In this document: in pieces, positions 39,170-50,643 of the stretch
Position numbering within the stretch: the first letter of the stretch is position 1
How the letters are laid out: each line of letters opens with the position of its first letter
Source of the DNA: a virus
Length of the DNA: 64,000 nucleotides
IMG/VR virus record: IMGVR_UViG_3300042905_003904
Coordinates: 65,223 to 129,222 of that record
Direction: 5' to 3' (one strand)
Position numbers and translations under genes: made by a program
The notes under the pieces: model-generated
The model's database searches: none
Seen by the model: only the letters and a program-made list of their open reading frames with translations
Told to the model about the DNA's origin: nothing

Positions 39170-39170
39170 A

Positions 39171-39365
39171 TTACCACCCAATAGATTTACTGGCACTGAC
39201 CCATGCAGCAGAATCAGCATCTCGTTTAGCATACATTACTTTGGCATAATAGTCACCCACCTCTCCTTGAAACATTTCATCCCCAACTACAGCATGTCTC
39301 CATTTGGAAAGCAGTTCATATAGGCTCATATTATCAATGATTGGTTTCGCGGTTTCTAATGTCAT
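39171..39365 (-). CDS. hypothetical protein
   Basis: IDNMSLYELLSKWRHA..GDEMFQGEVGDY...SKSIGW. Confidence 0.65.
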   Translation of the reverse strand: MTLETAKPIIDNMSLYELLSKWRHAVVGDEMFQGEVGDYYAKVMYAKRDADSAAWVSASKSIGW

Positions 39366-39391
39366 AAAAGAAGTTTCCTGTATTTTATGAG

Positions 39392-39443
39392 GAAAAACAA
39401 GTCCGGATTACTGATGCTCCAAATGGTAGGATCAGTAATCCGG
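39392..39443 (-). terminator. 13-bp hairpin with downstream U-rich tract, probable terminator
   Basis: CCGGATTACTGAT/ATCAGTAATCCGG (39403-39443), then ACTTGTTTTT on minus. Confidence 0.5.
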
Positions 39444-39505
39444 TTGTGGTAAGGCTTGACCCTTCCCAGAGTTCTCGAGCTGATGGGGTCTTTTAACGAG
39501 AATCC

Positions 39506-40219
39506 TTACGACAAATTACTTAGTTCGCTCCAGACCTGAAAGAGCCGACTTTTTAAAAGTTTTAGGTGCTTCGGCGATTCTAAACAAGCCACCAAGAAAT
39601 TTTTATCATCTATAATCCATTTTGGCAAAGATTTGATGGTTCTCTTTAAAGGGGTTCGAATGAACTGTTCCAAGTCCTTTAGAAACAGTGTTTTTTGCTT
39701 GGACCATTGCGCGTCCGAGCGTTGAACCTCTAAAGTGGACGTTCTGACGCGTTTAAGATGGTTAATAAGATGGAAACGAAGAGTTCCTAAATGAGCCTCA
39801 AACTCTGCTGGTTCTAAGAAGTAATCTTTACGATAGGCTAAACCCCCAGCCTTAATAGTGGTAATTGCATCATCATAAGTTGCTGAGGTGTCCTTATAAT
39901 GCTGAACTCCATGCCAAACTTCATGCACTAGAAACTTTTCTAGATTAGCCGCATTTAAATTTTGAATCCCTTTCCAGTAAAGGACAATTTGTTTTCCGGT
40001 CCATTCCCCAACAGCCGAAATGTCTTCAGGACTAAGAACTAGGGGGATATTTTTAACTCGGTTGGTTTCCCTATTAACCACTGAAATAGAACCCAAAGAA
40101 GTTTTCTTGGTGGGTGGTTCTTGAATTTGAGACAGCTTACGACTAAACTGATGAATTTGAGAAAGAGTCTCTTCTGGAAGATCCTTGAAGGATTCTGAGA
40201 AGAAGGTTTGAAAATTCAT
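39506..40219 (-). CDS. putative zincin metallopeptidase
   Basis: LVHEVWHGVQH...YFLEPAEFEAH; TATAAATA upstream. Confidence 0.65.
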   Translation of the reverse strand: MNFQTFFSESFKDLPEETLSQIHQFSRKLSQIQEPPTKKTSLGSISVVNRETNRVKNIPLVLSPEDISAVGEWTGKQIVLYWKGIQNLNAANLEKFLVHEVWHGVQHYKDTSATYDDAITTIKAGGLAYRKDYFLEPAEFEAHLGTLRFHLINHLKRVRTSTLEVQRSDAQWSKQKTLFLKDLEQFIRTPLKRTIKSLPKWIIDDKNFLVACLESPKHLKLLKSRLFQVWSELSNLS

Positions 40220-40243
40220 ATGATGTAGTATTTATAGAGAAAA

Positions 40244-40318
40244 TGGTAACCCTACCCAAAATTGCATTGGGACTTAATCCTTAGGAGGGAATCGTGATGT
40301 CTATTTCACTATAGGGTT
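40244..40318 (-). tRNA. tRNA-Arg(CCT)
   Basis: AACCCTA/TAGGGTT, loop CTCCTAA, CCA. Confidence 0.85.
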
Positions 40319-40327
40319 ATTAAAGAG

Positions 40328-40399
40328 TGTTCCATCCAGGAATTGCACCTGGAATAAGATTTCCGCAAAATCTCGTGATGTCTATTTCACTAATGGAAC
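40328..40399 (-). tRNA. tRNA-Arg(GCG)
   Basis: GTTCCAT/ATGGAAC, loop TTGCGGA, no encoded CCA. Confidence 0.85.
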
Positions 40400-40404
40400 T
40401 AAAA

Positions 40405-40485
40405 TGGTATTCGCGATAGGGGTCGAACCTATATATTATCCAGTTAACCTTTTTACTCGTTAGAAGCGAGAGGGTATACGCGAAC
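40405..40485 (-). tRNA. atypical tRNA-Arg(TCT), no D-arm in the normal position
   Basis: GTTCGCG/CGCGAAT, loop CTTCTAA, T-loop TTCGACC, CCA. Confidence 0.75.
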
Positions 40486-40491
40486 ATTAAA

Positions 40492-40567
40492 TGGAAATCC
40501 GGGTGATATTTGCAATCACTATTAGCTATTTTGCAGATAGCCACCGATCTACTTTGGCTTCCGGATT
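40492..40567 (-). tRNA. tRNA-Cys(GCA)
   Basis: AATCCGG/CCGGATT, loop CTGCAAA, U73, CCA. Confidence 0.85.
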
Positions 40568-40572
40568 ATAAA

Positions 40573-40668
40573 TGGCAGTGAGCAGAGTATTTGCAACCCA
40601 ACCCAAGTCTTAGTTGGATCCACATACTTTCCAGGTATGGCCGATATCGCTGGTTCGGTTTACTCACT
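40573..40668 (-). tRNA. tRNA-Ser(GGA), 8/4 type
   Basis: AGTGAGTA/TGCTCACT, loop CTGGAAA, long V-arm, G73, CCA. Confidence 0.85.
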
Positions 40669-40675
40669 ATTAAAT

Positions 40676-40750
40676 TGGTCCCAATATCCGGACATGCACC
40701 GGCTTCACAGACTTATGAAATCTGGGTTTTACTATATAAACTATACTGGG
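40676..40750 (-). tRNA. tRNA-Met or Ile2 (CAT)
   Basis: CCCAGTA/TATTGGG, loop TTCATAA, CCA. Confidence 0.8.
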
Positions 40751-40761
40751 TCTTAAAATTG

Positions 40762-41229
40762 TCAATCTTGATATTCAATGATATAAGTGGAATTTCGGGT
40801 GTGAATTAAGGTTTTTTCTTCGTTCGTGCTCATAATACTAGAAGAACAGAAGTGACCGTGATCTAATACGATAGCGCCACCAACTTTTAGTGGGGAGGTT
40901 AATTTGCCTTTGTGTATACTTTTTACACCCAATTTAATTACTCGAACTCTTTTATCCCAAACTTCTCCCTTCAGATTCAAAGTGGTAACCATACCACCCA
41001 TGGAGATATTCCTGCCGTGATAATATTCAATTTCCTCCGGATTCAAATCTCGAGTGGTTGCTTTGGGAAAACGAACATCTATAAACCCTATCCCATAAAC
41101 CCAGGCACCATAAAAGTTTTCTTCGTCCTCTTTATAGACACTGCAAATATCTGGAGTGTCATTACTAATGTCACCAAGACCATGAAACGCTTTGGTGGCG
41201 AGTTTGTAAATGGATTTGAATTCTTTCAT
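40762..41229 (-). CDS. hypothetical protein within the tRNA array
   Basis: 155-aa ORF ending TRNSTY. Confidence 0.65.
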   Translation of the reverse strand: MKEFKSIYKLATKAFHGLGDISNDTPDICSVYKEDEENFYGAWVYGIGFIDVRFPKATTRDLNPEEIEYYHGRNISMGGMVTTLNLKGEVWDKRVRVIKLGVKSIHKGKLTSPLKVGGAIVLDHGHFCSSSIMSTNEEKTLIHTRNSTYIIEYQD

Positions 41230-41277
41230 GTTTCTATATTAGAATGGATTTGAAGGAAAGACCAGAAAAAGAAAGAG

Positions 41278-41368
41278 AGGTTCGCTAAGCTGCCGCCGCT
41301 TAACCCAAGTCTTAGTTGGATCCAGGAATTTAGCAAATTCCGTTCATCACTGGATGAATTAACGAACC
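41278..41368 (-). tRNA. tRNA-Ser(GCT), 8/4 type
   Basis: GGTTCGTT/AGCGAACC, loop TTGCTAA, long V-arm, no CCA. Confidence 0.85.
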
Positions 41369-41375
41369 ATGAAAG

Positions 41376-41449
41376 TGGGGCCGAGAACCAAAATTGCATT
41401 GGTATCATCTATATTACGAGTATAGGGTTTTGCATTAAACTATCTCGGC
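41376..41449 (-). tRNA. tRNA-Thr(CGT)
   Basis: GCCGAGA/TCTCGGC, loop CTCGTAA, CCA. Confidence 0.85.
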
Positions 41450-41453
41450 ATGG

Positions 41454-41558
41454 GAATACTGAATTGTGCGAAGCAGCGGGACTGCTCTGGGCGTTTATGA
41501 CTAGTCGTCCAGTCACCGCTATTCACGCGACCGAATTTCTTCGCACAATTCAATACTC
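41454..41558 (-). ncRNA. candidate ~105-nt RNA with 20-bp closing stem
   Basis: GAGTATTGAATTGTGCGAAG/CTTCGCACAATTCAGTATTC. Confidence 0.55.
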
Positions 41559-41608
41559 ATTGTTTAAATATTATCTGTTAGTTTTAGGGAATTGCAACTA
41601 ATTTAAAA

Positions 41609-41703
41609 TGGCGGCTAACGGAGTGGATGCTACCCAACCTAGTAGTGAACTAGATCCAACTATTTTCGAAATAGTGTCAGCTCGCTTGTCTGATTCATTA
41701 GCC
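41609..41703 (-). tRNA. tRNA-Ser(CGA), 8/4 type
   Basis: GGCTAATG/CGTTAGCC, loop TTCGAAA, long V-arm, G73, CCA. Confidence 0.85.
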
Positions 41704-41709
41704 ATTAAA

Positions 41710-41784
41710 TGGTAGTCGGGGAGAATTTCGCAATCTCAATCTTGGCATTCAGAGTGCCCTGCGTTACTTTTACGCCACCCGACA
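41710..41784 (-). tRNA. tRNA-Gln(CTG)
   Basis: TGTCGGG/CCCGACT, loop CTCTGAA, CCA. Confidence 0.85.
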
Positions 41785-41791
41785 ATTAAAA

Positions 41792-41877
41792 TGGAGCCTG
41801 ATGAGGGACTTGCACCCCCGGTGAGATTTCTCTACATGATTACAAATCACGTCCTATCGCTACTAAGGGAATCAGGC
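41792..41877 (-). tRNA. tRNA-Thr(TGT) with long variable arm
   Basis: GCCTGAT/ATCAGGC, stem CGTGA/TCATG, loop TTTGTAA, CCA. Confidence 0.8.
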
Positions 41878-41897
41878 ATTTTGAAATTTATTTGAAA

Positions 41898-41975
41898 TGG
41901 CATCGTCTGAGGCTCTTGCGGCCTCTAGGTCTACTTTGAGGGAGTAGTTACTCGAGCTACTTTGTATTAGACGAC
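41898..41975 (-). tRNA. tRNA-Glu(CTC)
   Basis: GTCGTCT/AGACGAT, loop CCCTCAA (C33), CCA. Confidence 0.8.
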
Positions 41976-42161
41976 ATTGTATTGTGCAGTTACATTCTCG
42001 GCAATAATCTTGGCTGCCTTGAGGTGAAGATCTAGGGGAATCAAATTCTTTAAATCCGCAAATAACATTTCTGCTAGACCACAAAAATCGTGGTAGTTGG
42101 CTCCTTCTGCTTCTTCGGAGGCTTTACGTAAAATTTCATCGATCTTGTTTTGAAGTTTCAT
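41967..42161 (-). CDS. hypothetical protein within the tRNA array
   Basis: 64-aa ORF; stop lies inside the tRNA-Glu 5' end. Confidence 0.55.
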   Translation of the reverse strand: MKLQNKIDEILRKASEEAEGANYHDFCGLAEMLFADLKNLIPLDLHLKAAKIIAENVTAQYNVV

Positions 42162-42170
42162 GAGATGATT

Positions 42171-42431
42171 TTAACTACGAGTTTTCTGGAATTCTCTTAG
42201 TTTTTCTAAATCATCCCCTTCATAAAAATCTGGAATACCGCTTGCTGGATATCCGCCGCATCTACCACAAGATAAACAAGTTCCGGCTCCTCTAATGGTT
42301 CCTACTTCACCATTATGATTGATTACTAAATTAGAACGTTCTCCATCACAGTTATCACAAGAGAACATGCTTCTTTCAGTGATAATAGAAACATAGGCTT
42401 CGGAAAGTAGTTGGGTATCTTTGTCGTTCAT
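42171..42431 (-). CDS. small Cys-rich protein
   Basis: MNDKDTQLLSEAY...CDNC...CLSCGRC; TAAATA upstream. Confidence 0.6.
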   Translation of the reverse strand: MNDKDTQLLSEAYVSIITERSMFSCDNCDGERSNLVINHNGEVGTIRGAGTCLSCGRCGGYPASGIPDFYEGDDLEKLREFQKTRS

Positions 42432-42450
42432 ACGAGTATTTAGGTTAAAG

Positions 42451-42525
42451 TGGCTGGGAATCCGGCGTTTGCATCCGGTTTTAAAGTTTTTCAAACTTTC
42501 ACACTACGTCATGTGTTAATTCCCA
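42451..42525 (-). tRNA. tRNA-Phe(GAA)
   Basis: TGGGAAT/ATTCCCA, loop TTGAAAA, CCA. Confidence 0.8.
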
Positions 42526-42534
42526 ATTAAAAAG

Positions 42535-42608
42535 TGCTAGAGGGGTGTGCTGCCCACTCCTTCCTTCGACTTATCAAGTCGGTGCATATGCTGTTTTGCT
42601 TCTCTAGC
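42535..42608 (-). tRNA. tRNA-Ile(GAT)
   Basis: GCTAGAG/CTCTAGC, loop TTGATAA, irregular T-arm, no CCA. Confidence 0.75.
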
Positions 42609-42619
42609 GTTTGAAAATA

Positions 42620-42691
42620 TTCGCCATGTTCGTGCTGCCCGAACTACTCCCAGTATGTCGAACTAGGTTTCTGCTGTTGAATTAATGGCGA
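42620..42691 (-). tRNA. tRNA-Val(GAC)
   Basis: TCGCCAT/ATGGCGA, loop TCGACAT (C33), no CCA. Confidence 0.8.
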
Positions 42692-42761
42692 GTGAAATTG
42701 GCCTGCGAATTTTAACACCCCTTGCAGGTCGGGCTACGTGCTGAACGTGTTCTTAAGAAAG

Positions 42762-42835
42762 TGGAGCCCAATCCCGGTAACTCTCCGGATTTTCACCATT
42801 ACCAATGGCGTGTATTAATTTTATACGAATCGGGC
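42762..42835 (-). tRNA. tRNA-Thr(GGT)
   Basis: GCCCGAT/ATTGGGC, loop TTGGTAA, CCA. Confidence 0.85.
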
Positions 42836-42844
42836 TTTAAAACG

Positions 42845-42916
42845 TAGTCCCGGAAAATTTTGCAATTTCAACCTTCTCTGTGTAAAAGAGTTGCTCCACT
42901 TTTGAGCTACGGGACC
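42845..42916 (-). tRNA. tRNA-Val(TAC)
   Basis: GGTCCCG/CGGGACT, loop TTTACAC, no CCA. Confidence 0.85.
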
Positions 42917-42928
42917 ATTAAATTAAAG

Positions 42929-43004
42929 CGCTGCTGGAAAGAATTGCACTCTCATAAATCCTACTTCGAAGGTAGGTGCCTGGGTCTGTTCGAGCCACAG
43001 CAGC
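42929..43004 (-). tRNA. tRNA-Arg(TCG)
   Basis: GCTGCTG/CAGCAGC, loop CTTCGAA, no CCA. Confidence 0.85.
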
Positions 43005-43019
43005 ATTATTAAAAATTAA

Positions 43020-43126
43020 TTCCACTTTATGAAGCCAGTCTCCCTCGCAGGATAAGCACTCTTCATAAACAAACACCAAACGTAAACGATTTATAGGGTT
43101 TTGACACCAGTGCAAGTGTAGTGGAA
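43020..43126 (-). ncRNA. candidate ~107-nt RNA
   Basis: Closed by TTCCACT/AGTGGAA; inner TTTATGAAG/CTTCATAAA. Confidence 0.45.
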
Positions 43127-43129
43127 ATA

Positions 43130-43204
43130 TGGAAGGCGTTATCGGTATTGCGCCGATTTATCTAACTTGGCAAGCTAGTGCATCACTTTTTATGCTTAAC
43201 ACCC
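43130..43204 (-). tRNA. tRNA-Gly(GCC)
   Basis: GGGTGTT/AACGCCT, loop TTGCCAA, U73, CCA. Confidence 0.85.
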
Positions 43205-43213
43205 ATTAAAAAT

Positions 43214-43720
43214 TTATCCCATAGTAGCAAATATATCATTTTGGATACCCTGAAGGTTTACTGCTATGTGCGGATATAAAGAAATTTCATTTGTTTTAAT
43301 GTCCTTCAAATAAATATTGGATTTTAAACAATTAGCAGGATCCTGAAACATATTTGTTGTATTTTTTAATGTTAACGGTTTATCTTTACAAAGCGTCCAG
43401 TCATGTTTATAAAAACAATCATGAGTCGGGGCTGGAATCCTAATACTACCACAACTGTTAAAGGTTACTACGGTTTTCGCTATGTCATCCAATTCTAGGA
43501 ATTTAACAAAGAACAATTTTCTTGGTAAATTTTGCACATGAATAATATGCCAATCAGAATTGAATTCGGTCTGATAATCTTTCAATGTGTCTTTATCCAT
43601 AGGAAATGTATGGAAACATTCATAATCAAACCGAACGACAGTATCCGTTGATTTACCTTTAATCTTCCACAGATAATCTTGGCGATTATATATGGTTTCC
43701 AATGAATGAATAATTCTCAT
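43214..43720 (-). CDS. hypothetical AT-rich protein within the tRNA array
   Basis: 168-aa ORF. Confidence 0.55.
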   Translation of the reverse strand: MRIIHSLETIYNRQDYLWKIKGKSTDTVVRFDYECFHTFPMDKDTLKDYQTEFNSDWHIIHVQNLPRKLFFVKFLELDDIAKTVVTFNSCGSIRIPAPTHDCFYKHDWTLCKDKPLTLKNTTNMFQDPANCLKSNIYLKDIKTNEISLYPHIAVNLQGIQNDIFATMG

Positions 43721-44015
43721 AAATTGATGTTACTATTATTTGTTCGGAATAGCACTCTCAACTTTAGAAAAACACCTCCACAAATTAGGCTTAGTAAAAG
43801 AGGCCTGCATGGTCTGGCGAAAATATAAGCTCCCATGATTTACAACCTTTGGGTATTAGTATCTGGAACGGTTATGCAGATCTGCTTAAAGGGTATCATC
43901 CTTGGGATTTTTACCCAACCACCATAAGATATCATTAGGTGTTTCTAGCACACATTCCAGGCTCATCTAGACTCATAGGATTGGATAAGATTTCGGGCTG
44001 ATGTTATTTTGAAAA

Positions 44016-44090
44016 TGGCTCCCACCCAACGATTCGAACGTTGCTCACACGAGTTAACAGCTCGGCCGCACACCTAGTGCGTTGACGGGA
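44016..44090 (-). tRNA. tRNA-Asn(GTT)
   Basis: TCCCGTC/GGTGGGA, loop CTGTTAA, TTCGAAT, G73, CCA. Confidence 0.9.
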
Positions 44091-44098
44091 TTTGAAAT

Positions 44099-44172
44099 TG
44101 GCACCCCATTCGGAGCTCTCATCCGATATTCTTGCGTGACAAGCAAGTATGATAATCATTCATCAATGGGGT
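44099..44172 (-). tRNA. tRNA-Asp(GTC)
   Basis: ACCCCAT/ATGGGGT, loop TTGTCAC, G73, CCA. Confidence 0.85.
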
Positions 44173-44179
44173 ATTAAAT

Positions 44180-44256
44180 TGGTCCGAAAGGTAGGCGCTT
44201 CCCCTACATATATCCGCACATCAAGCGGGTCCTTTATATTTCTCAGGCACTCTCGG
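44180..44256 (-). tRNA. tRNA with GAT anticodon (Ile?), atypical
   Basis: CCGAGAG/CTTTCGG, loop TTGATGT (G37), CCA. Confidence 0.7.
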
Positions 44257-44265
44257 TTTGTAAAT

Positions 44266-44357
44266 TGGTAGAAGGTGTCGGTAACGCTCCGACTCGAGGC
44301 CCACATCTAGGGCGAAACGGGGTATAAAACCGTCTTGGCTACTTAGCACAACCTTCC
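44266..44357 (-). tRNA. tRNA with TAT anticodon (Ile?) and long variable arm
   Basis: GGAAGGT/ACCTTCT, loop TTTATAC, V-arm GCCC/GGGC, CCA. Confidence 0.7.
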
Positions 44358-44366
44358 ATTGAAATA

Positions 44367-44444
44367 TGGGGTAAACGACCGCATCTGCCGCGGCTATAAC
44401 TCCGGTTCACAGCCGGATCCCTATCTACTTTGGGTTCGTCTACC
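44367..44444 (-). tRNA. tRNA-His(GTG)
   Basis: G-1:C73, GTAGACG/CGTTTAC, loop CTGTGAA, CCA. Confidence 0.9.
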
Positions 44445-44453
44445 ATTTGAAAT

Positions 44454-44840
44454 TGGCCGTTTGTGGACTTCAACCACTTCCCGGATAACGGTTTTAATCC
44501 GGTTTCAGTTCTCATAGGTTTGCGGCCCGAAGCTGCCTGAAATTTAAGCCAGTTACTCGAGCTCCCTATTTGCGGCACTTAACCGTCAAGTTTAGTGGAC
44601 TCCGCCATTTGGGGACCTGTTTCGCTGACACCACCAAATTGACGTTCGGTGGAAATTAATTACCAAAGAAACCCCTCATTCTGAACTGGAAGCTACGACA
44701 TCTTCAAGAGACGTTTCCAGTGACACGGGGTTCTTTGGCTTCTATCTATGGATGTCAAATTATATCCGTTTGTGCTTCCTCTTACACTAAGTCTCCTGAT
44801 TGATTTCAGAAGCGCCGGTCCTTGAACCCGAACTAAACGG
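44454..44840 (-). ncRNA. ~390-nt structured non-coding block (one or several RNAs)
   Basis: Long hairpin 44663-44738; 3' end GTGG-TTGAAGT-CCAC-AAACGG-CCA; 5' CCGTTT. Confidence 0.5.
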
Positions 44841-44844
44841 AAAT

Positions 44845-44919
44845 TGGCACGCGCTGATCTGCTTGCAAGATCCCACGACCTTTTGGAGAGGTTGTCGCCA
44901 CTATGGAACATGAGCGCGT
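44845..44919 (-). tRNA. tRNA-Trp(CCA)
   Basis: ACGCGCT/AGCGCGT, loop CTCCAAA, G73, CCA. Confidence 0.85.
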
Positions 44920-44925
44920 ATGAAA

Positions 44926-45000
44926 TGGTAGCCCCACCTGGTAACCCTCCAGGTTCTATGGTTTCAAAGACCACTGCATTTAGTTCTATGCTATGGGGCA
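44926..45000 (-). tRNA. tRNA-Gln(TTG)
   Basis: TGCCCCA/TGGGGCT, loop CTTTGAA, CCA. Confidence 0.85.
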
Positions 45001-45009
45001 ATTATAAAA

Positions 45010-45086
45010 TGGTGAGCTCCCAGGGTATCGCGCCCTGCATCTCCAATTTAAAAGATTGGTGCATACTCTATGGCAGCTTGGAGCCC
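45010..45086 (-). tRNA. tRNA-Lys(TTT)
   Basis: GGGCTCC/GGAGCTC, loop CTTTTAA, CCA. Confidence 0.85.
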
Positions 45087-45093
45087 ATAAAAT

Positions 45094-45167
45094 TGGTGAG
45101 TCGTCCTGGTAATTCTCCAGGTTCTTCTGTTTAAGAGACAGGGGCCTTAATTTTAGGCGAACAACCC
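45094..45167 (-). tRNA. tRNA-Lys(CTT)
   Basis: GGGTTGT/ACGACTC, loop CTCTTAA, CCA. Confidence 0.85.
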
Positions 45168-45180
45168 ATATTGAAATTAA

Positions 45181-45264
45181 TCGTATACTCCGGTGTTGCT
45201 CCGAGCGTAATCTTTCGATATCTAGATCCCAAATCTAGCGGGGTCTCTGGCTCCCTCGTATACG
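45181..45264 (-). tRNA. tRNA-Pro(TGG) with long variable arm
   Basis: CGTATAC/GTATACG, loop TTTGGGA, V-arm ATC-GAAA-GAT, no CCA. Confidence 0.8.
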
Positions 45265-45274
45265 TTTTATAAAT

Positions 45275-45359
45275 TGGTAGTCCCGACAGGCATCGAACCT
45301 GCAAGCATTTCTGCGTAAGTTTCTAAAACTTATATGTTTGCCAATTTCATCACAGGACC
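45275..45359 (-). tRNA. tRNA-Leu(TAG)
   Basis: GGTCCTG/CGGGACT, loop TTTAGAA, V-arm, CCA. Confidence 0.9.
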
Positions 45360-45368
45360 ATTAAATAG

Positions 45369-45451
45369 TGTCGATAGTTGGAGTTGCACCAACACGCCCT
45401 TTCGGACAAAAGTTTTTAAGACTTTCATGGCTTCTGTTACATCATACCGAC
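45369..45451 (-). tRNA. tRNA-Leu(TAA)
   Basis: GTCGGTA/TATCGAC, loop CTTAAAA, V-arm, no CCA. Confidence 0.85.
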
Positions 45452-45459
45452 TTTGAAAT

Positions 45460-45543
45460 TGGTCCTCATAGTAGAAATTGCATCTACACTCCCGAAGGAA
45501 CTTGTTTTTGAGACAAGCGCGGCTGCTGTTACGCCATATGAGG
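45460..45543 (-). tRNA. tRNA-Leu(CAA)
   Basis: CCTCATA/TATGAGG, loop CTCAAAA, V-arm, CCA. Confidence 0.85.
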
Positions 45544-45556
45544 TTTATTGAAATTT

Positions 45557-45724
45557 CTCAAATACCACCTCATCCGTTTGCGATCGGATACTACACACTA
45601 AACCAGCCCGGTTCGTGCTTCGGCAGTTTTCCCTATTTGGGCTCCTACTAACCCCGGCAGGTAATTAGTAGATCTTTGAGGTAGACCCCCGCGTCTGTTA
45701 TTGCGCCAGCAGATGGCATTTGAA
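45557..45724 (-). ncRNA. candidate ~168-nt RNA
   Basis: 14-bp closing stem TTCAAATGCCATCT/AGGTGGTATTTGAG. Confidence 0.5.
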
Positions 45725-45729
45725 ATTAA

Positions 45730-45800
45730 TTCAGTGGTTCGATGCTGCAGGAGTGCCTGGGCTGAATCGATTGACTTCTAGTTCCTGGCGAAACACTGAA
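45730..45800 (-). ncRNA. candidate ~71-nt RNA
   Basis: Closed by TTCAGTG/CACTGAA; inner TTCG/CGAA and CAGGA/TCCTG. Confidence 0.4.
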
Positions 45801-45802
45801 AT

Positions 45803-45880
45803 TGGTAGCGTATACCGGTGCTGCCCCGGTTCTAAGTTCTCCTTGAAAGGGAGGGAAGCATGCTGTTGCTCATATACGCC
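45803..45880 (-). tRNA. tRNA-Glu(TTC)
   Basis: GGCGTAT/ATACGCT, loop CTTTCAA, CCA. Confidence 0.85.
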
Positions 45881-45889
45881 ATTTGAAAT

Positions 45890-45986
45890 TGGAGCGATTA
45901 GGGGATTTGCACCCACACCTTTAGTCTAGACGACTACTGTTCTATGAATCCCTAAAGAGGAAATTCTCTAATTAAACTACCCTCGC
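45890..45986 (-). tRNA. aberrant tRNA-like gene (loop CGTCTAG) with a hairpin inserted in the D-loop
   Basis: GCGA/TCGC-T-CCA, T-loop TGCAAAT, weak acceptor stem. Confidence 0.55.
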
Positions 45987-45992
45987 ATTAAA

Positions 45993-46083
45993 TGGTGGGA
46001 GCAAACTGAATCGCACAGTAAGCCTCGACTTCCAATCCTTGGTTAAGGTGCGGTTTTACAGACCGCCGATTGGGGTTACTCCC
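45993..46083 (-). tRNA. atypical tRNA-Tyr(GTA), no D-arm in the normal position
   Basis: GGGAGTA/TGCTCCC, loop CTGTAAA, A73, CCA. Confidence 0.75.
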
Positions 46084-46094
46084 ATTTGAAATTA

Positions 46095-46166
46095 TTGCAG
46101 GTATGGGAATTGCACCCATGCATAACGGCTTATGAGACCGTGGACTTACTACTTGTCGAACCCGCG
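46095..46166 (-). tRNA. tRNA-fMet-like (CAT)
   Basis: CGCGGGT/ACCTGCA with C1:A72 mismatch, loop CTCATAA, no CCA. Confidence 0.85.
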
Positions 46167-46233
46167 ATTTGAAATCATACCCAAATAGATCTCTCAAGTC
46201 TTTTTTAAGGACCATCTATCCAGGTTTTGAAAG

Positions 46234-46318
46234 TTACAGAGGCGGGTATTGATCCACTTTTGGGCATTTGCACCTTCCAGGTTATGGGCCTGGCGAAACA
46301 CGTTTTCTCTACTCTGTT
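46234..46318 (-). tRNA. second initiator-like tRNA (CAT) with extra arm
   Basis: AACAGAG/CTCTGTA 1:72 mismatch, CCAGG-CCCATAA-CCTGG, irregular T-arm. Confidence 0.65.
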
Positions 46319-46330
46319 ATTTAAAGACTA

Positions 46331-46411
46331 TCAAGAAGGTCCGATGCTATTATCATTGCGATTTTATAGAATGGTGATAAAGCCACCCTCATCCGACGAA
46401 ACACTTCCTGA
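46331..46411 (-). ncRNA. candidate ~80-nt RNA
   Basis: Closed by TCAGGAAG/CTTCTTGA. Confidence 0.35.
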
Positions 46412-46428
46412 ATCTGTATAAATTGAAG

Positions 46429-46502
46429 TGGAATATCTGGGTTACGCTCCCAGTTCTGCGCATTGCAAGTGCACCGTGTTACCTATTAATCACTAATACC
46501 CC
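46429..46502 (-). tRNA. tRNA-Ala(TGC)
   Basis: GGGGTAT/ATATTCC with G3:U70, loop CTTGCAA, no CCA. Confidence 0.88.
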
Positions 46503-46520
46503 TTTACTCTATGAAATTTG

Positions 46521-46635
46521 TTTGGTGTGAAATTTTACCCGCGATTATTTTCCAGCTTTGCGATAACCCCTTAGATTAGACCCTCAGGGAAAGGCGGTTC
46601 CTTCAACATCGCAAAGGTCCTTTATAGGCACCAAA
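46521..46635 (-). ncRNA. candidate ~115-nt RNA
   Basis: TTTGGTG/CACCAAA closing stem; inner CTTTGCGAT/ATCGCAAAG. Confidence 0.45.
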
Positions 46636-46639
46636 TTAT

Positions 46640-46749
46640 TTTCCTGAAAGTGTTTGTGGACTGCGGGAAACTGCCTCCGCCCGACCTTTGATCACCCAAG
46701 TGGATGAGAAAGAAATTGCATCTTTCGACTCCCAGCCCCTTTCAGGAAA
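46640..46749 (-). ncRNA. candidate ~110-nt RNA
   Basis: 11-bp perfect closing stem TTTCCTGAAAG/CTTTCAGGAAA. Confidence 0.5.
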
Positions 46750-46750
46750 T

Positions 46751-47059
46751 TGGGCAGGATTTGTTCCCATTACTTCCAGGGTCAGCTTTTAGCCTGCGGA
46801 GCTGTGCTTCTTTCGAAATCGTCTAATTTTAACACGCAGACTAGAAACTGCGAAGTCTTTGGGAGGCTTTCATAATCTGCCGGTTCACCATTCCGGACTG
46901 ACGAATTATGTTTTGCTGATTACGCTTTGCGGGCTTCTCTCAGATACAATCTTTTGTTCTGGAGTGATTGAACTCCAGTATCTTTATGCGCTATTAGAGC
47001 ACACTATCGAGGAGAGTAATACATTTATCCCCGTTTCTACATCTGCCCGTTTCACAGGC
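46751..47059 (-). ncRNA. candidate ~300-nt multi-hairpin RNA
   Basis: GGGCAG/CTGCCC long-range pairing; hairpins CTGGAGT/ACTCCAG, CATAAT/ATTATG, CGCAG/CTGCG. Confidence 0.45.
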
Positions 47060-47072
47060 ATACTAGAGAAAA

Positions 47073-47147
47073 TGGAGCGACATGTGGGTAACCCACCCAC
47101 TTAAACCTGTTTGGAAAACAGGTGCATCAGTTTTCTGCCAATGTCGC
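47073..47147 (-). tRNA. tRNA-Gly(TCC)
   Basis: GCGACAT/ATGTCGC, loop TTTCCAA, U73, CCA. Confidence 0.88.
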
Positions 47148-47157
47148 ATTTGAAATT

Positions 47158-47252
47158 TGGTGGCCGGACATGTTCGTCATTATGAAGCTTACGGATGCCT
47201 GTGGCGGGGCTGGGTTATTCACCAACCCGAATACACTTTTCAGACGCCGACC
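47158..47252 (-). ncRNA. 95-nt RNA with acceptor-like stem and ACCA end
   Basis: GGTCGG/CCGGCC-A-CCA; no canonical T-arm. Confidence 0.5.
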
Positions 47253-47268
47253 ATTATTTGAAATTCTT

Positions 47269-47323
47269 AGGGAGGAGCCCGTCTACTGCTGGAATTTTCC
47301 ACGACAGTTATTTGCTCCTCCCT
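47269..47323 (-). ncRNA. 55-nt hairpin unit
   Basis: 10-bp AGGGAGGAGC/GCTCCTCCCT. Confidence 0.4.
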
Positions 47324-47359
47324 TATCATTTTAACCTACTATATTACTTAAACTTCCTC

Positions 47360-47495
47360 CGCAAATTGAGGTGTGCTTGCTTACACTACATAGTAGAACT
47401 ACTACATCACTTACCATTCCGTTCTGGTGCCTACGTGCTGTAGGATCGCTTTTTATGTGGTTTGTAGCACCACTGAATGCATTTTTAAATTTGCG
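47360..47495 (-). ncRNA. candidate ~135-nt RNA, first unit after the attenuator
   Basis: Closed by CGCAAATT/AATTTGCG. Confidence 0.3.
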
Positions 47496-47498
47496 AAC

Positions 47499-47524
47499 AA
47501 AAAACCCGACCTTTCGATCGGGTT
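47499..47524 (-). terminator. intrinsic terminator (attenuator) at the head of the tRNA array
   Basis: AACCCGATC-GAAA-GGTCGGGTT-TTTT on minus. Confidence 0.88.
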
Positions 47525-47572
47525 CTCTAAAGTCTGACTACTTCTTTACAATTTTCAGACTTTAGAGAACCC
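47520..47572 (-). promoter_or_regulatory. antiterminator hairpin, mutually exclusive with the terminator
   Basis: Perfect 18-bp inverted repeat GGGTTCTCTAAAGTCTGA/TCAGACTTTAGAGAACCC; the 3' arm shares AACCC with the terminator 5' arm. Confidence 0.8.
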
Positions 47573-47689
47573 TTCGGCTAACGTTGGATTAAAGAGCGCG
47601 GGTTGCTTCCCTTCAATCGACCAGCCGCGAGCATCACATCCCACTATATGGGTTTGATAACTTTTTGAACTGGAGACTACTGCTTTCAT
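47555..47689 (-). CDS. putative 44-aa leader peptide containing all 20 amino acids
   Basis: MKAVVSSSKSYQTHIVGCDARGWSIEGKQPALFNPTLAEGFSKV*; last codons and TGA form the antiterminator 5' arm; TAAATA 13 nt upstream. Confidence 0.75.
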   Translation of the reverse strand: MKAVVSSSKSYQTHIVGCDARGWSIEGKQPALFNPTLAEGFSKV

Positions 47690-47702
47690 TTACTGTTACT
47701 AT

Positions 47703-47730
47703 TATTTACCATTTAATCGGGAATTTCAAC
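47703..47730 (-). promoter_or_regulatory. putative promoter of the leader and tRNA array
   Basis: TTGAAATTCCC...TGG-TAAATA upstream of the leader ATG; TAAATA precedes many genes here. Confidence 0.5.
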
Positions 47731-47829
47731 AAACTTTCTTTGAATTTGTTTTGTTCTTCAACTACTTGGCTCATTTAACTTCTTCTAATATCTAGGAGTT
47801 TCAGGGAAACTGCAACGGGAATTTTAAAA

Positions 47830-48318
47830 TTAAGTGACTTTTCCACCGATTCGACCTTTTGCTGTTCGGAACCGTCCATTTGCCGTCACCTGTTTCAAAT
47901 TCTTGAAAAGAACCTGCTGCAACTCTGCAACTAGTTGATCTTTGTCTGCAATCGGCATTTTCAATTTTTCCAAGTCCGTCACTACATTTTGAACAGCGCT
48001 ATTAATATATGATCGATATTTCGCTTCTTGCGACATCCGAGAAGCGCCTTCTTTTTGGGAAGTTCCTGCTTTTTGTAATGATTGTGCTTTTTGTCCCCAT
48101 TTACTTCTGGATAGATCGTGTCCAACCACTTTTCCGACGCCTGCTGCTGCTTTGTTCAAAACACTCCCAGCCGCTTGTTTGGCGCTTCCCGCAATTTGGT
48201 GCCCTGCTCCTTTTGCTGCTGCGATGGCTTGGGATCCCCGAGCTTTAAGACGGTCCCACAATCCTTCCTGAACTAATTGATAGGCTTCTTCGAGAGGTTT
48301 TTGGTCTGGCTGGATCAT
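47830..48318 (-). CDS. Ala/Lys/Gly-rich protein, probable internal head protein
   Basis: LEEAY..VQEGLWDRLKAR N-terminus; TAAATA upstream. Confidence 0.6.
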   Translation of the reverse strand: MIQPDQKPLEEAYQLVQEGLWDRLKARGSQAIAAAKGAGHQIAGSAKQAAGSVLNKAAAGVGKVVGHDLSRSKWGQKAQSLQKAGTSQKEGASRMSQEAKYRSYINSAVQNVVTDLEKLKMPIADKDQLVAELQQVLFKNLKQVTANGRFRTAKGRIGGKVT

Positions 48319-48520
48319 AAGACTATTTATCCAACCAACTACCTATAAATCCAACCAGTCCAAATCAATCACAGTTTCCCTGGAATGCTTATCAACGCGG
48401 ATGATCGCTGTGTGGGAATGGTTTAAAATTTCTACAACCTCTACAATCATTCCTACCTGATAAGGAACTGCTTTGTTCTTTTCATTGATCCGACCCTGCC
48501 GAAATGTGGTTTGTTTCATA

Positions 48521-48913
48521 TTAACAGTCTTTGCAGAGGCCGTCTCTTGTAACCGGACCATTACCACAATTTTCACACGGCTCTCCTATTTGCGGCTTAT
48601 AGATGTCATCCAATTTGTGATGCAGCATTAAAATATAGTCTTCCACAGAACTTCCACGATTCTTTACAAATGAAGCCATTTCTTCTGGATTATTTCGGGC
48701 ATGAACGCCTTGAGCAATTTCTAAAAGGTGTTCTAAACTTTCCCTGTCTTCCGCTGATTCTTCCACCTGAGAGGCTCTTTCATCTACTTCACACTTACCA
48801 CAGAACCCAGATTCATTCGCCTCGGCATCACAATTCTCACACTTTTTCTTCTTTTCTTTGGGCATTGCATCGTCCGTGGTTTCTTCGATAATATCTAAAA
48901 TGCTCTTTTTCAT
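48521..48913 (-). CDS. protein with two small Cys4 motifs
   Basis: CENC...CGKC and CENC...CKDC. Confidence 0.6.
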   Translation of the reverse strand: MKKSILDIIEETTDDAMPKEKKKKCENCDAEANESGFCGKCEVDERASQVEESAEDRESLEHLLEIAQGVHARNNPEEMASFVKNRGSSVEDYILMLHHKLDDIYKPQIGEPCENCGNGPVTRDGLCKDC

Positions 48914-48966: not shown

Positions 48967-50643
48967 ATGTATTTTGACACAGAAATTCGGAAACAGCACG
49001 TTCTTTTGGAATCGACCAAAAAAGAACCGCGAGCACATTTGTCCCATCTTGAGGACCTTTCTATTGAATCTGGGAAAGAAGGATTTGAAGAATTTGGGAT
49101 GCATGTGGGTGAAATTTTGAAGAGGGTCGAGGGGCTGGAATCCGAACAACACATCGGAGAGAAGATTGATGGAAGTATGTCTGTGTATTTTGGAATTGAT
49201 CCTCGCCCCACTTTCAAAGGACAATTTAGTGTGGCCACCAAATCGGCGCTTTCCAAGGAACCCAAATTGATTCATTCCTTGGACGAAATTGAAGCTCTTT
49301 ACCCGGATAAAAATGAAACATTCAAAACCCATTTAGCCGAAGTTTTCACCAATCTACAAAAGGCCTATGATTATAGTGGAAAGATTTATATGGGGGATTT
49401 GCTGTTTTCCAGTGGCCGACAGAAAAGAACCACAGAGATTGATGGGGTTCCATATCTTTATTTCAAACCGAATACGCTGGTTTATGCGGTGGAAGAGGAT
49501 CCAAAATCTGAATTATATAATCGTCTGAAGGATGCTTCTTTGGGTATTTTTATTCATGATTCATATACCGCAGAATCTAAAGAAGGGAAATTGTCCCTAA
49601 CATCTGCTGGGAAAAATATAGACGGCTTGATTCAAAAGGGAAAGGAGAATGGGGTATTTATTGAAGGTTCCCACATTGAAAATGTAAACCTAAAGGTTCC
49701 GAAGAAAACATATAATTTAATTCAACGGCTAATGAAGAAATTGGATAAGGAAAAGAATAGTATTCCCGCTGAATTTGATGCGTATTGGGGTAGCTCACCG
49801 GCATTAGATCGGATGAAGAAATATATTAATCAGCAGATTCATCTACCAGACGGGGGCATCTTTGGTAATTCTGGCCGTAGTTTCAATGCCTATAAGATTC
49901 TAGAAGAATTCGTTCCATTCATCCGCGGCTCTTATAAAAATCACAAGAATGCAGAACTGGTGGTTTCTACCTTGAAAAAATTCGAAGAACCCTTTGTCCA
50001 TCTCTTAAAGAGTTTTTACTGGATGCTACAAATCAAAAACCAACTGCTGGATTTGTTTGACCAGGTGGAATCCAAAATTGGTAAGACCTTTATCCAACAA
50101 GAAGATGGAAGTTTTGTTCCGACAAGAGGGGAAGGCTTTGTCTTTATGCACCAAGGAAAATATGTGAAACTGGTAGATCGGCTAAGCTTCACTAAAAACA
50201 ATAAAATCTTCGGCAGATTCAACGAATCATTGAAGGTGGTATTAGAATACAACCAGGATAAAAAACTGAAAGGTTCTTACTGTTGGATGGATAAGACTGG
50301 AAAATTTTATTATTTTGAACAAGGGGAGGAACATCATGGAGATGCTGCAATCCGAATCTTACAAGACCATTTTCCTCAGATATATAAGTCTCTCAAATTC
50401 AATCAGGATTCGGATGCCCCAATTTATGATGCCCTGTTCAATTTAGGGTTTATTCGCATAGCATCCCATGATGATAAAACCTATCTAATTCAGTCGCCTA
50501 AACCTCCCACACCTCCTCAGCGGCGAAGTGTTATTGATTTTTGTATTGAAGCCGGATTTCAAACTATTGAATGGGATTCTTATAGTTGGACTGGAAGAGA
50601 TAGCCGAATCATTTGGCAAAACGAATCTGCTGGAGTTTCCTAA
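48967..50643 (+). CDS. large phage protein with ligase-like KxDG motif
   Basis: HLSHLED...EKIDGS...GDLLF...FKPNTLVY...GEGFV...KLVDRLSF; TATAAATA upstream. Confidence 0.65.
   Translation: MYFDTEIRKQHVLLESTKKEPRAHLSHLEDLSIESGKEGFEEFGMHVGEILKRVEGLESEQHIGEKIDGSMSVYFGIDPRPTFKGQFSVATKSALSKEPKLIHSLDEIEALYPDKNETFKTHLAEVFTNLQKAYDYSGKIYMGDLLFSSGRQKRTTEIDGVPYLYFKPNTLVYAVEEDPKSELYNRLKDASLGIFIHDSYTAESKEGKLSLTSAGKNIDGLIQKGKENGVFIEGSHIENVNLKVPKKTYNLIQRLMKKLDKEKNSIPAEFDAYWGSSPALDRMKKYINQQIHLPDGGIFGNSGRSFNAYKILEEFVPFIRGSYKNHKNAELVVSTLKKFEEPFVHLLKSFYWMLQIKNQLLDLFDQVESKIGKTFIQQEDGSFVPTRGEGFVFMHQGKYVKLVDRLSFTKNNKIFGRFNESLKVVLEYNQDKKLKGSYCWMDKTGKFYYFEQGEEHHGDAAIRILQDHFPQIYKSLKFNQDSDAPIYDALFNLGFIRIASHDDKTYLIQSPKPPTPPQRRSVIDFCIEAGFQTIEWDSYSWTGRDSRIIWQNESAGVS

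What the first reader, a model, noticed from the sequence alone, without database searches (positions are those of the whole stretch)
47499..47730. Pan-codon leader-peptide attenuator gating the phage tRNA array
Seen: directly upstream of the tRNA array, on its strand, is an unlisted 44-codon ORF (47689-47555). It contains all 20 amino acids by codon 34 and 37 distinct codons, including all 4 Ala, 5 Ser, 3 Val and 3 Gly codons. Even uniform sampling of 61 codons would give only about 31-32 distinct. Its last five codons plus UGA are exactly the 5' arm of a perfect 18-bp hairpin, whose 3' arm overlaps the 5' arm of a GAAA-capped intrinsic terminator with a U-tract. Established: trp/his/thr attenuators use this geometry but with runs of one or two cognate amino acids. 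Inference: a ribosome reaching the stop masks the antiterminator, so transcription terminates. Stalling at any earlier codon (cleaved, uncharged or modified host tRNA, or blocked initiation) frees it and the whole replacement tRNA set is transcribed. That would be a general translation-health sensor countering tRNA-targeting defences. I do not know of a description of this.
Basis: partly seen in the sequence, partly recalled or inferred. Interest (0 to 1): 0.96.

Follow-up and report, generated by a model that had tools for sequence, protein, structure and literature searches.

The report
Translation-gated terminator before phage tRNAs
In front of this freshwater phage's tRNA genes sits a tiny reading frame that uses all twenty amino acids and ends inside an RNA helix competing with a transcription stop signal, so the phage may make more tRNA when ribosomes slow down, but this rests on sequence analysis alone.

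Summary
A 44-codon ORF (47689-47555, minus strand) has 37 distinct codons and all 20 amino acids by codon 34. Its last five codons plus TGA form the 5' arm of the longest perfect hairpin in the window (18 bp). That hairpin shares 5 nt with a strong GAAA-capped terminator.

New here:
- A promoter-like site and the phage's usual gene-start motif (TAAATA) lie just upstream of the ATG.
- The ORF body is not structured.
- Complete amino-acid coverage in 34 codons is found in 1 of 560 ORFs of the genome.
- Helix and terminator are nearly isoenergetic. A simple ribosome-footprint model flips terminator occupancy from about 0.24 to 0.88 between codons 34 and 36.

Limits:
- All reachable relatives are at least 97% identical here, so ORF or helix conservation could not be tested.
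- The first tRNA lies 352 nt beyond the terminator.
- The array has internal promoter-like sites.
- A boxA-like motif offers a rival reading.
- Nothing shows translation.

I read it as a probable ribosome-gated attenuator (about 0.45). The anti-defence "pan-codon sensor" reading is unproven. The scan noted the same architecture before in many other phages. Four literature searches found no published account.

The parts
47701..47729 (-). Sigma-70-like promoter match TTGAAA-17-AATAAT. It contains the phage's gene-start motif TAAATA at 47708-47703.
   Evidence: It is one of the two best matches (10 of 12) in the 13-kb scan. TAAATA lies within 28 nt upstream of an early ATG in 17 of 137 ORFs of at least 120 aa, against 4 of 426 small ORFs. 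It is unchanged in L004 and in the run X12 variant.
47555..47689 (-). 44-codon ORF (MKAVV...GFSKV) plus TGA; candidate leader peptide.
   Evidence: All 20 amino acids are present by codon 34 (1 of 560 ATG ORFs). The codon-usage score of 0.058 lies between real genes and spurious ORFs. It matches no Pfam or PHROG family. Only a cluster at 90% identity or more holds it, with 4 variants, all 44 aa.
47589..47597 (-). boxA-like GCTCTTTAA inside the ORF (codons 31-34).
   Evidence: It matches 10 of 11 positions of the gamma-proteobacterial consensus GYTCTTTAANA (PMC5725501, passage read). The 9-mer GYTCTTTAA occurs 6 times in the window against 1.77 expected.
47520..47572 (-). Perfect 18-bp helix (5' arm 47572-47555 including TGA, 17-nt loop, 3' arm 47537-47520); partial antiterminator.
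   Evidence: pair I1. The helix alone is -29.7 kcal/mol. It is unchanged in L004 and in the run X12 variant.
47496..47524 (-). Intrinsic terminator: AACCCGATC-GAAA-GGTCGGGTT followed by a T-run (TTTTTTGTT counting the last two stem Ts).
   Evidence: -14.3 kcal/mol alone; third most stable of 21 sites in 129 kb. The run X12 variant has GCAA in place of GAAA, which still fits GNRA.
47148..47495 (-). Structured spacer without ORF or recognisable tRNA, between the terminator and the first tRNA.
   Evidence: Fold z-score -2.63, with 1 of 100 shuffles folding as well. No Rfam family matches. An RNA-library contig of run X24 covers 47378-47518.
47073..47147 (-). First detectable tRNA of the array (Gly, anticodon TCC).
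   Evidence: ARAGORN finds it at 95% thresholds but not at default.

Best explanation
This is a ribosome-gated transcription attenuator at the head of the first block of the phage's tRNA array.

Proposed mechanism. Transcription starts a few bases before the ATG at 47689, from the promoter-like site at 47729-47701. The 44-codon frame is then translated while RNA polymerase moves on.
- If the ribosome reaches the last codons or the UGA, it covers the 5' arm of the 18-bp helix. The 3' arm then gives its AACCC to the terminator stem, and transcription stops at the U-tract near 47500.
- If the ribosome is absent or held up anywhere in codons 1 to about 35, the 18-bp helix forms and keeps AACCC most of the time. 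The terminator is reduced to a 4-bp stub, and more polymerases run on into the structured spacer and the tRNA genes.
- Codons 1-34 contain every amino acid, so slow decoding of any one of them could raise read-through. This would act as a feedback on tRNA supply.

Shown here: the sequence anatomy, the energetics and the rarity of the composition.

Inferred: the transcription start, translation of the ORF, coupling to termination, and the biological purpose.
For: Anatomy and transcription signals.
- The anatomy is confirmed.
- The promoter-like site is one of the two best of 35 in 13 kb. No other match on this strand lies between the terminator and the first tRNA.
- The TAAATA start context is enriched about 12-fold before real genes (17 of 137 against 4 of 426). 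Shine-Dalgarno cores are rare in this phage (5 of 42), so the missing SD does not count against translation.

The open frame.
- An open frame of this length has about a 4% chance under local composition.
- The ORF body is no more structured than shuffles (z -0.68, 54 of 200 fold as well). This fits a translated leader and does not fit an aptamer.
- No Rfam family matches, T-box included.
- All 20 amino acids within 34 codons occurs in 1 of 560 ATG ORFs, in 49 of 64,683 stop-free windows, and at 0.15% under independent draws from gene amino-acid usage.

Terminator and competing helix.
- The terminator is among the three most stable of 21 sites in 129 kb.
- The footprint model gives lower-stem terminator occupancy of 0.24 for free RNA, 0.08-0.31 for a ribosome at codons 10-34, 0.78-0.93 at codons 36-40, and 0.88 at the stop.

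Relatives and RNA libraries.
- Against relative L004, the block 47449-47874 has 1 mismatch in 426 nt. The next 907 nt have 30, and the rest is about 9% different.
- An RNA-library contig spans the U-tract (47378-47518). This is weak, because DNA carry-over is not excluded.
- Earlier notes of this scan report the same architecture in many other phages. These are leads and were not tested here.
Against: - No data show that the ORF is translated or where transcripts start or end.
- The only relatives whose DNA I could read are at least 97% identical here (L004, run X12), so ORF, stop position and helix could not be tested by covariation.
- The relatives with 66-69% identical neighbour proteins (P0004, P0005) were unreachable.
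- No homologue of the peptide below 90% identity was found (1 candidate).
- The helix overlaps the terminator by only 5 nt, and the two states differ by about 1.2 kcal/mol, so the predicted effect is graded.
- 352 nt of other RNA separate the terminator from the first tRNA.
- The array has further promoter-like sites (40805-40778, 46854-46826; TAAATA at 46323, 42442 and 40234) and interspersed ORFs.
- Codon diversity is less extreme if the sequence is unbiased (P 0.011 uniform; 0.9% of open windows in the tRNA region), and it was noticed after the fact.
- The three known peptide variants are all amino-acid changes. By my reading, two of them lower the distinct-codon count to 36.
- A boxA-like motif sits in the ORF.
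- An RNA-library contig runs from the upstream gene into the ORF start (47666-47937), so the ATG is not only at a 5' end.
- The one named tRNA-rich phage I examined, S-CRM01, has a plain promoter and no leader ORF before its first tRNA.
Confidence: 0.45

Rival explanations
1. This is a self-contained small gene or small-RNA unit. The promoter, the 44-aa protein (or a roughly 190-nt RNA) and its own terminator form one short transcription unit with a function unrelated to tRNA control. The 18-bp helix stabilises or processes the 3' end. The tRNAs are made by leaky read-through and from internal promoters.
For: - The strong promoter-like site and the strong terminator bracket about 200 nt.
- Gene callers called the ORF on at least 15 contigs.
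- The codon-usage score is nearer to genes than most spurious ORFs reach (8.3% of 265 small ORFs score higher).
- The array has other promoter-like sites.
Against: - No family or homologue was found beyond near-identical copies.
- This reading explains neither the 20-amino-acid coverage nor why the helix shares exactly the terminator's basal 5 nt.
- The one relative read in full has 1 non-synonymous and 0 synonymous changes.
Confidence: 0.2
2. This is a plain, constitutively leaky terminator, and the open frame is a matter of chance. The helix merely tunes terminator strength by branch migration, setting a fixed ratio of short to long transcripts. The ORF and its composition are coincidences picked out after the fact.
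For: - The states are near-isoenergetic without any ribosome.
- Codon diversity lies only in the top 1% of unbiased sequence.
- No evidence shows translation.
- An RNA-library contig spans the terminator.
Against: - An open frame from an ATG next to the predicted start, running right into the helix arm, has a few percent chance (open fraction 0.042).
- Amino-acid coverage has P of about 0.001.
- The start context is gene-like.
Confidence: 0.15
3. This is a non-coding leader that loads a processive antitermination complex. The boxA-like GCTCTTTAA would recruit NusB/NusE-type factors, or a phage factor, so that polymerase can cross the terminator and the long untranslated array, as in rRNA operons. 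The 18-bp helix could be a boxB-like or RNase III element.
For: - The motif matches the published consensus GYTCTTTAANA at 10 of 11 positions, on the right strand, between promoter and terminator.
- A long untranslated transcript would plausibly need protection. This point is inference.
Against: - The last consensus position is not met.
- The host and its boxA are unknown.
- The 9-mer occurs at 5 other places in the window.
- In the minimum-free-energy fold the motif is paired, whereas boxA acts single-stranded (PMC2800207, abstract seen in the listing).
- The open frame and its composition remain unexplained.
Confidence: 0.1

Closest known systems
Leader-peptide transcription attenuators of amino-acid operons (trpL, hisL, thrL, ilvL, pheL; textbook knowledge, recalled; pheL paper PMC3082878 seen as abstract)
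   Same: A short promoter-proximal ORF is followed by an intrinsic terminator. The stem of that terminator competes with an upstream helix, and ribosome position decides which helix forms. A ribosome reaching the stop favours termination.
   Different: There are no runs of one or two regulatory codons; instead all 20 amino acids occur once or a few times. There are only two competing helices, with no 1:2 helix. The overlap is 5 nt, so control would be graded. The controlled genes are tRNAs and not biosynthetic enzymes. The context is a phage, with a very short or absent 5' leader and no SD.
Ribosome-stalling attenuators of antibiotic-resistance genes (B. subtilis vmlR, PMC9226507; tlrB/yxjB, PMC6851288; abstracts seen)
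   Same: They sense a general slow-down of translation on a leader ORF and answer with terminator read-through.
   Different: They depend on drug-bound ribosomes and specific arrest contexts. They control resistance proteins, not tRNAs.
Anabaena trn L-array (26 tRNA genes) induced under translational stress (PMC8421152, passages read; PMC10272220, abstract read)
   Same: An accessory tRNA array is switched on when translation is impaired, which is the same biological logic.
   Different: Control there is at the promoter, by the repressor TrcR binding direct repeats. The words leader, attenuat- and terminator do not occur in the main text of PMC8421152.
T-box riboswitches (recalled)
   Same: A terminator/antiterminator switch that reads the tRNA charging state.
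   Different: There is no Rfam T-box match in the leader at E up to 10. The leader body is not significantly structured.
boxA/Nus-factor antitermination of rRNA operons and lambda nut sites (PMC5725501, passages; PMC3177189, section 10 read)
   Same: A GCTCTTTAA motif lies in the leader of a long untranslated RNA operon.
   Different: One consensus position is missed. The motif lies inside an open frame and is predicted to be paired. No factor or host is known.
Leaderless polycysteine short ORFs acting as attenuators in mycobacteria (bioRxiv 10.1101/834739, abstract seen)
   Same: A short ORF at or next to the 5' end of the transcript, without SD, is proposed to control downstream genes through its own translation.
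   Different: They respond to a single amino acid and belong to cellular operons. I did not read that paper beyond the abstract, so I did not compare its mechanism.

Membership tests
Leader-peptide transcription attenuator | Short ORF close behind a promoter, with a usable start | tested here: met
   ATG 47689 lies 11 nt after the -10-like hexamer and 13 nt after TAAATA. The same context occurs before 17 of 137 large ORFs against 4 of 426 small ones. This is in silico only.
Leader-peptide transcription attenuator | Intrinsic terminator between the ORF and the regulated genes | tested here: met
   A 9-bp GC-rich stem with a GAAA loop and a T-run, -14.3 to -15.8 kcal/mol, third of 21 sites in the genome.
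Leader-peptide transcription attenuator | Alternative helix mutually exclusive with the terminator | tested here: inconclusive
   Only 5 of the 9 terminator pairs are contested. The energies are -33.2 kcal/mol (18-bp helix plus stub) and -32.0 kcal/mol (13-bp helix plus terminator).
Leader-peptide transcription attenuator | Ribosome position selects the helix (stop codon placed so that a terminating ribosome masks the antiterminator) | tested here: met
   TGA is the last triplet of the 5' arm. Modelled occupancy is 0.24 for free RNA and 0.88 with a ribosome at the stop, with the switch between codons 34 and 36. This is a model, not a measurement.
Leader-peptide transcription attenuator | Regulatory codons: runs of the cognate amino acid(s) | tested here: not met
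   No amino acid occurs more than 5 times in 44, and the longest run is SSS. Instead all 20 are present by codon 34.
Leader-peptide transcription attenuator | ORF is translated and termination responds to it | not testable with these tools
   The public runs gave only low-depth contigs.
Leader-peptide transcription attenuator | ORF, stop position and helices kept in diverged relatives | tested here: inconclusive
   They are kept in L004, in run X12 and in four peptide variants, but all of these are at least 97% identical. More distant relatives could not be reached.
T-box riboswitch | Match to the Rfam T-box covariance model | tested here: not met
   No T-box match at E up to 1 or up to 10.
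boxA (Nus factor binding site) | Consensus GYTCTTTAANA | tested here: inconclusive
   GCTCTTTAATC matches 10 of 11 positions. Which positions are critical is in a supplementary table that I could not see.

The most novel reading that the evidence does not exclude
The leader is a deliberate all-amino-acid test strip. A shortage of any charged tRNA, whether from host tRNA cleavage by anticodon nucleases, from starvation or from the phage's own codon demand, stalls the ribosome within codons 1-34. That stall opens transcription of the phage's own tRNA block. The new tRNAs then restore leader translation and shut the gate again. This would be a self-correcting tRNA-supply circuit and a new class of target for leader-peptide attenuation, shared by many unrelated phages.
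Probability: 0.22. Interest if true: 0.85.

Novelty: new variant of a known kind. Interest (0 to 1): 0.62.

Why it matters
Phage tRNA arrays are usually discussed as codon-usage aids or as replacements for host tRNAs destroyed by defence nucleases. How their expression is controlled is largely unknown. If a ribosome-read gate in front of the array is real, the phage measures decoding capacity directly and adjusts tRNA supply. That would extend leader-peptide attenuation from amino-acid and resistance genes to tRNA genes. It also gives a simple reporter-testable element of about 230 nt. Because this scan has flagged the same architecture in many unrelated phages, one experimental confirmation would carry over to a wide class.

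Tried and rejected
Relatives.
- Single-protein scans of IMG/VR with the 162-aa and the 558-aa neighbours found none.
- The alignment-based scan found one 40% relative, L003, with no tRNA.
- The genome-contig scan found none.
- The metagenome scan gave one near-identical contig, L004.
- A 16-mer of the leader hit 15 IMG/VR stretches. None shares more than 25 nt of flank, so I take them as chance.
- The terminator pattern hit nothing.

Sequencing runs.
- No contig of the two RNA libraries covers 47519-47665. This is no evidence either way.
- Depths are 2-23, and the contigs cannot show transcript ends.
- The X24 piece 47378-47518 carries adapter letters at both ends. It may be one small insert or DNA carry-over.

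Peptide.
- The AlphaFold model has mean pLDDT 64.9 and pTM 0.26, which is not informative.
- The ESM Atlas gave no usable look-alike.

Other attempts.
I abandoned it because MAFFT misaligned the acceptor stems. ARAGORN and Rfam, with my reading of two anticodon loops, confirm tRNAs for 12 amino acids only.
- ARAGORN below 85% thresholds calls the wrong strand too often (6 of 31 calls at 80%, 19 of 53 at 75%).
- The built-in terminator scan did not list this terminator. I think this is because G-T pairing lets its stem swallow the T-run, so I scanned with my own script.
- dN/dS: the three peptide variants come from a protein database that cannot show synonymous variants, so I draw no conclusion from them.
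- Supplementary tables of PMC5725501 (critical boxA positions) were not available.

Full report
Where it lies. The window is the second half of a 129,222-base IMG/VR virus record, estimated 61% complete. It encodes a large terminase, a tail sheath, ribonucleotide reductase, a DNA ligase and a CCA-adding enzyme, so it is a large myovirus. Runs that hold it are lake, freshwater and sediment metagenomes (24 runs, 21 studies; only four were laid). All tRNA genes found anywhere in the genome lie in one array on the minus strand of the window. ARAGORN finds 10 at default thresholds and 15 at 95% thresholds, and Rfam finds 15 at E up to 1. Many of these tRNAs are atypical, because relaxed thresholds are needed even for the first one, Gly-TCC at 47147-47073.

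The observation. Read on the minus strand, the order of features is as follows.
- A sigma-70-like match TTGAAA-17-AATAAT at 47729-47701.
- ATG at 47689.
- A 44-codon frame ending in TGA at 47557-47555.
- A 17-nt loop.
- The 3' arm of a perfect 18-bp helix, whose 5' arm is the last five codons plus TGA.
- Sharing AACCC with that arm, a 9-bp hairpin capped by GAAA and followed by TTTTTTGTT.

The helix is the longest inverted repeat in the window. The terminator is the third most stable of 21 terminator-like sites in 129 kb. The observation therefore stands, with two corrections.
- The overlap of helix and terminator is 5 nt, not a whole arm.
- The first tRNA starts 352 nt after the U-tract. A structured stretch without ORF or tRNA lies between them (z -2.63).

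Is the composition more than chance? The probability of 37 or more distinct codons in 44 depends on the null model.
- 0.0004 under the phage's gene codon usage.
- 0.002 under local base composition and 0.011 under uniform codons.
- 0 of 1011 windows in real genes.
- 0.9% of 1851 stop-free windows in the non-coding tRNA region.

The sharper statistic is amino-acid coverage. All 20 amino acids within the first 34 residues occur in 1 of 560 ATG ORFs of the genome (this one), in 49 of 64,683 stop-free windows, and in 0.15% of independent draws from gene amino-acid usage. Both properties were noticed after the fact, so I treat them as moderate evidence, not strong.

Is the frame likely to be translated?
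- Shine-Dalgarno cores are rare in this phage (5 of 42 large ORFs).
- Instead, TAAATA lies 2-20 nt before an early ATG in 17 of 137 ORFs of at least 120 aa, including the tail sheath, against 4 of 426 small ORFs. The 44-codon ORF is one of those four. From memory, TAAATA resembles the T4 late promoter TATAAATA. If so, many mRNAs here have almost no 5' leader.
- The ORF's codon-usage score (0.058 per codon) lies between real-gene windows (0.153 +/- 0.117) and spurious small ORFs (-0.104 +/- 0.127), which decides nothing.
- An open frame of this length has about a 4% chance under local composition.
- The 122 nt from the predicted start to the helix fold no better than shuffles (z -0.68). This argues against an aptamer-like leader and fits a translated one.
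- No Rfam family matches the leader.
- No Pfam or PHROG family matches the peptide.

Energetics. The 18-bp helix plus a 4-bp stub of the terminator scores -33.2 kcal/mol. A 13-bp helix plus the full 9-bp terminator scores -32.0 kcal/mol. The two states interconvert by a 5-bp branch migration, because the helix base (GGGUU:AACCC) and the terminator base (AACCC:GGGUU) use the same AACCC. The helix is thus a partial antiterminator.

I modelled equilibrium occupancy of the five contested terminator pairs on the whole leader, blocking 18 nt upstream and 14 nt downstream of the first A-site base. That footprint is my assumption.

| State | Occupancy of contested pairs |
|---|---|
| Free RNA | 0.24 |
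| Ribosome at codons 10-34 | 0.08-0.31 |
| Ribosome at codons 36-40 | 0.78-0.93 |
| Ribosome at the stop | 0.88 |

The stop lies 30 nt before the terminator stem, so a terminating ribosome would not itself cover the terminator. The zone in which a stalled ribosome leaves the helix free ends where the twentieth amino acid appears (codon 34).

Relatives. The neighbouring DUF6267 protein has relatives at 96, 89, 69 and 66% identity. I could read DNA for one close relative only, L004.
- L004 has 92% protein identity to the neighbour. It differs from the window by about 9% over most of its length. It differs by 30 of 907 nt in 47875-48781 and by 1 of 426 nt in 47449-47874. That single change, GGC to GAC, is non-synonymous.
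- A second variant, in run X12 from another study, changes the loop GAAA to GCAA, which still fits GNRA. It also changes two bases between the -10 hexamer and the ATG. It has about 3.4% differences in the neighbouring gene and 2-3% in the tRNA genes.
- The protein collection holds four versions of the peptide, all 44 aa: the window's own, V16A, G22D and A31T. That source cannot show synonymous variants.
- In sum, the leader is about as conserved as the tRNA genes and more conserved than the flanking coding DNA. Nothing is diverged enough to test whether the frame, the stop position or the helices are under selection.
- The only named tRNA-rich phage that I examined is S-CRM01, with 37 tRNA matches. 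It has a hairpin and a TTGACT-17-TATGCT promoter, but no leader ORF, before its first tRNA.

Results against a single gate for the whole array.
- The other best promoter-like match on this strand sits at 40805-40778, just before tRNA-Met 40750.
- Further matches lie at 46854-46826, and TAAATA occurs at 46323, 42442 and 40234.
- ORFs of 107-237 aa interrupt the array.
- At most, the leader controls the first ORF-free block, 47147 to about 43800.

A rival lead.
- Codons 31-34 spell GCTCTTTAA. The published gamma-proteobacterial boxA consensus is GYTCTTTAANA (PMC5725501, passage read), and the leader matches 10 of 11 positions.
- The 9-mer occurs 6 times in the window against 1.77 +/- 1.25 expected, so it is not unique to the leader.
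- The motif is paired in the predicted fold.
- The host is unknown.
- I keep Nus-type processive antitermination as a minor rival.

RNA libraries.
- One contig of run X24 spans the second half of the terminator, the U-tract and 120 nt beyond (47378-47518).
- One contig of run X20 runs from the upstream gene into the ORF start (47666-47937).
- Both runs hold 46862-47056, a non-tRNA unit inside the array.
- These are low-depth contigs from libraries that may carry DNA. They are compatible with read-through but prove nothing.

What is known.
- Four full-text searches found no paper that links phage tRNA genes with a leader peptide or an attenuator.
- The nearest biology in print is the Anabaena trn array. 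It is induced by translational stress but is controlled by the repressor TrcR at the promoter (PMC8421152 passages; PMC10272220 abstract).
- The nearest mechanisms are the classical leader-peptide attenuators and the drug-sensing ribosome-stalling attenuators (abstracts seen).
- Within this scan, the same architecture has been noted in many other phages. One note describes a marine T4-like phage in which a small ORF ends inside a perfect 15-bp helix that competes with the terminator before the tRNAs. Some follow-ups supported codon matching and some did not. I did not test those notes.

Verdict. The sequence features are real and jointly unlikely by chance. The best reading is a graded, ribosome-gated attenuator heading the first tRNA block (0.45). 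The further claim, that its all-amino-acid composition is an adaptation to sense loss of any tRNA and to counter tRNA-targeting defences, is possible (about 0.2) and untested.

Noticed in passing
whole window and genome, e.g. 18210-18205, 48329-48324, 32506-32501 (minus strand): TAAATA lies 2-20 nt before the ATG of many genes (17 of 137 ORFs of at least 120 aa), and Shine-Dalgarno cores are rare (5 of 42). If TAAATA is a T4-late-type promoter (recalled), many mRNAs would be nearly leaderless.
   Followed up: partly
window 46862-47056 (minus strand): A non-tRNA stretch between tRNA-Gly and tRNA-Ala is held as contigs in both metatranscriptome runs laid (depth 7.4 and 23.3). It is a candidate abundant small RNA inside the array.
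   Followed up: no
window 315, 23631, 25223, 35933, 37836, 47589: The boxA-like 9-mer GYTCTTTAA occurs 6 times against 1.77 expected (0 of 100 shuffles reach 6). One copy (37844-37836, minus strand) lies just after the 203-aa gene downstream of the tRNA array.
   Followed up: no
window 38765-47147 (minus strand): Most tRNAs of the array escape default detection (10 by ARAGORN default, 15 by Rfam).
   Followed up: partly
window about 50624-50631 versus L004 3444-3853: The close relative L004 carries about 400 extra bases at the 3' end of the DUF6267 gene. Its protein is about 695 aa against 558 aa here, and P0002 is 696 aa.
   Followed up: no
window 47706-47774 (minus strand): A 22-codon ORF (MSQVVEEQNKFKESLLKFPIKW) ends inside the promoter-like site. 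It lies in the same block that is nearly invariant against L004.
   Followed up: no
window 40778-40805 (minus strand): A second 10-of-12 sigma-70-like match lies directly before tRNA-Met 40750, suggesting an internal promoter in the array.
   Followed up: no
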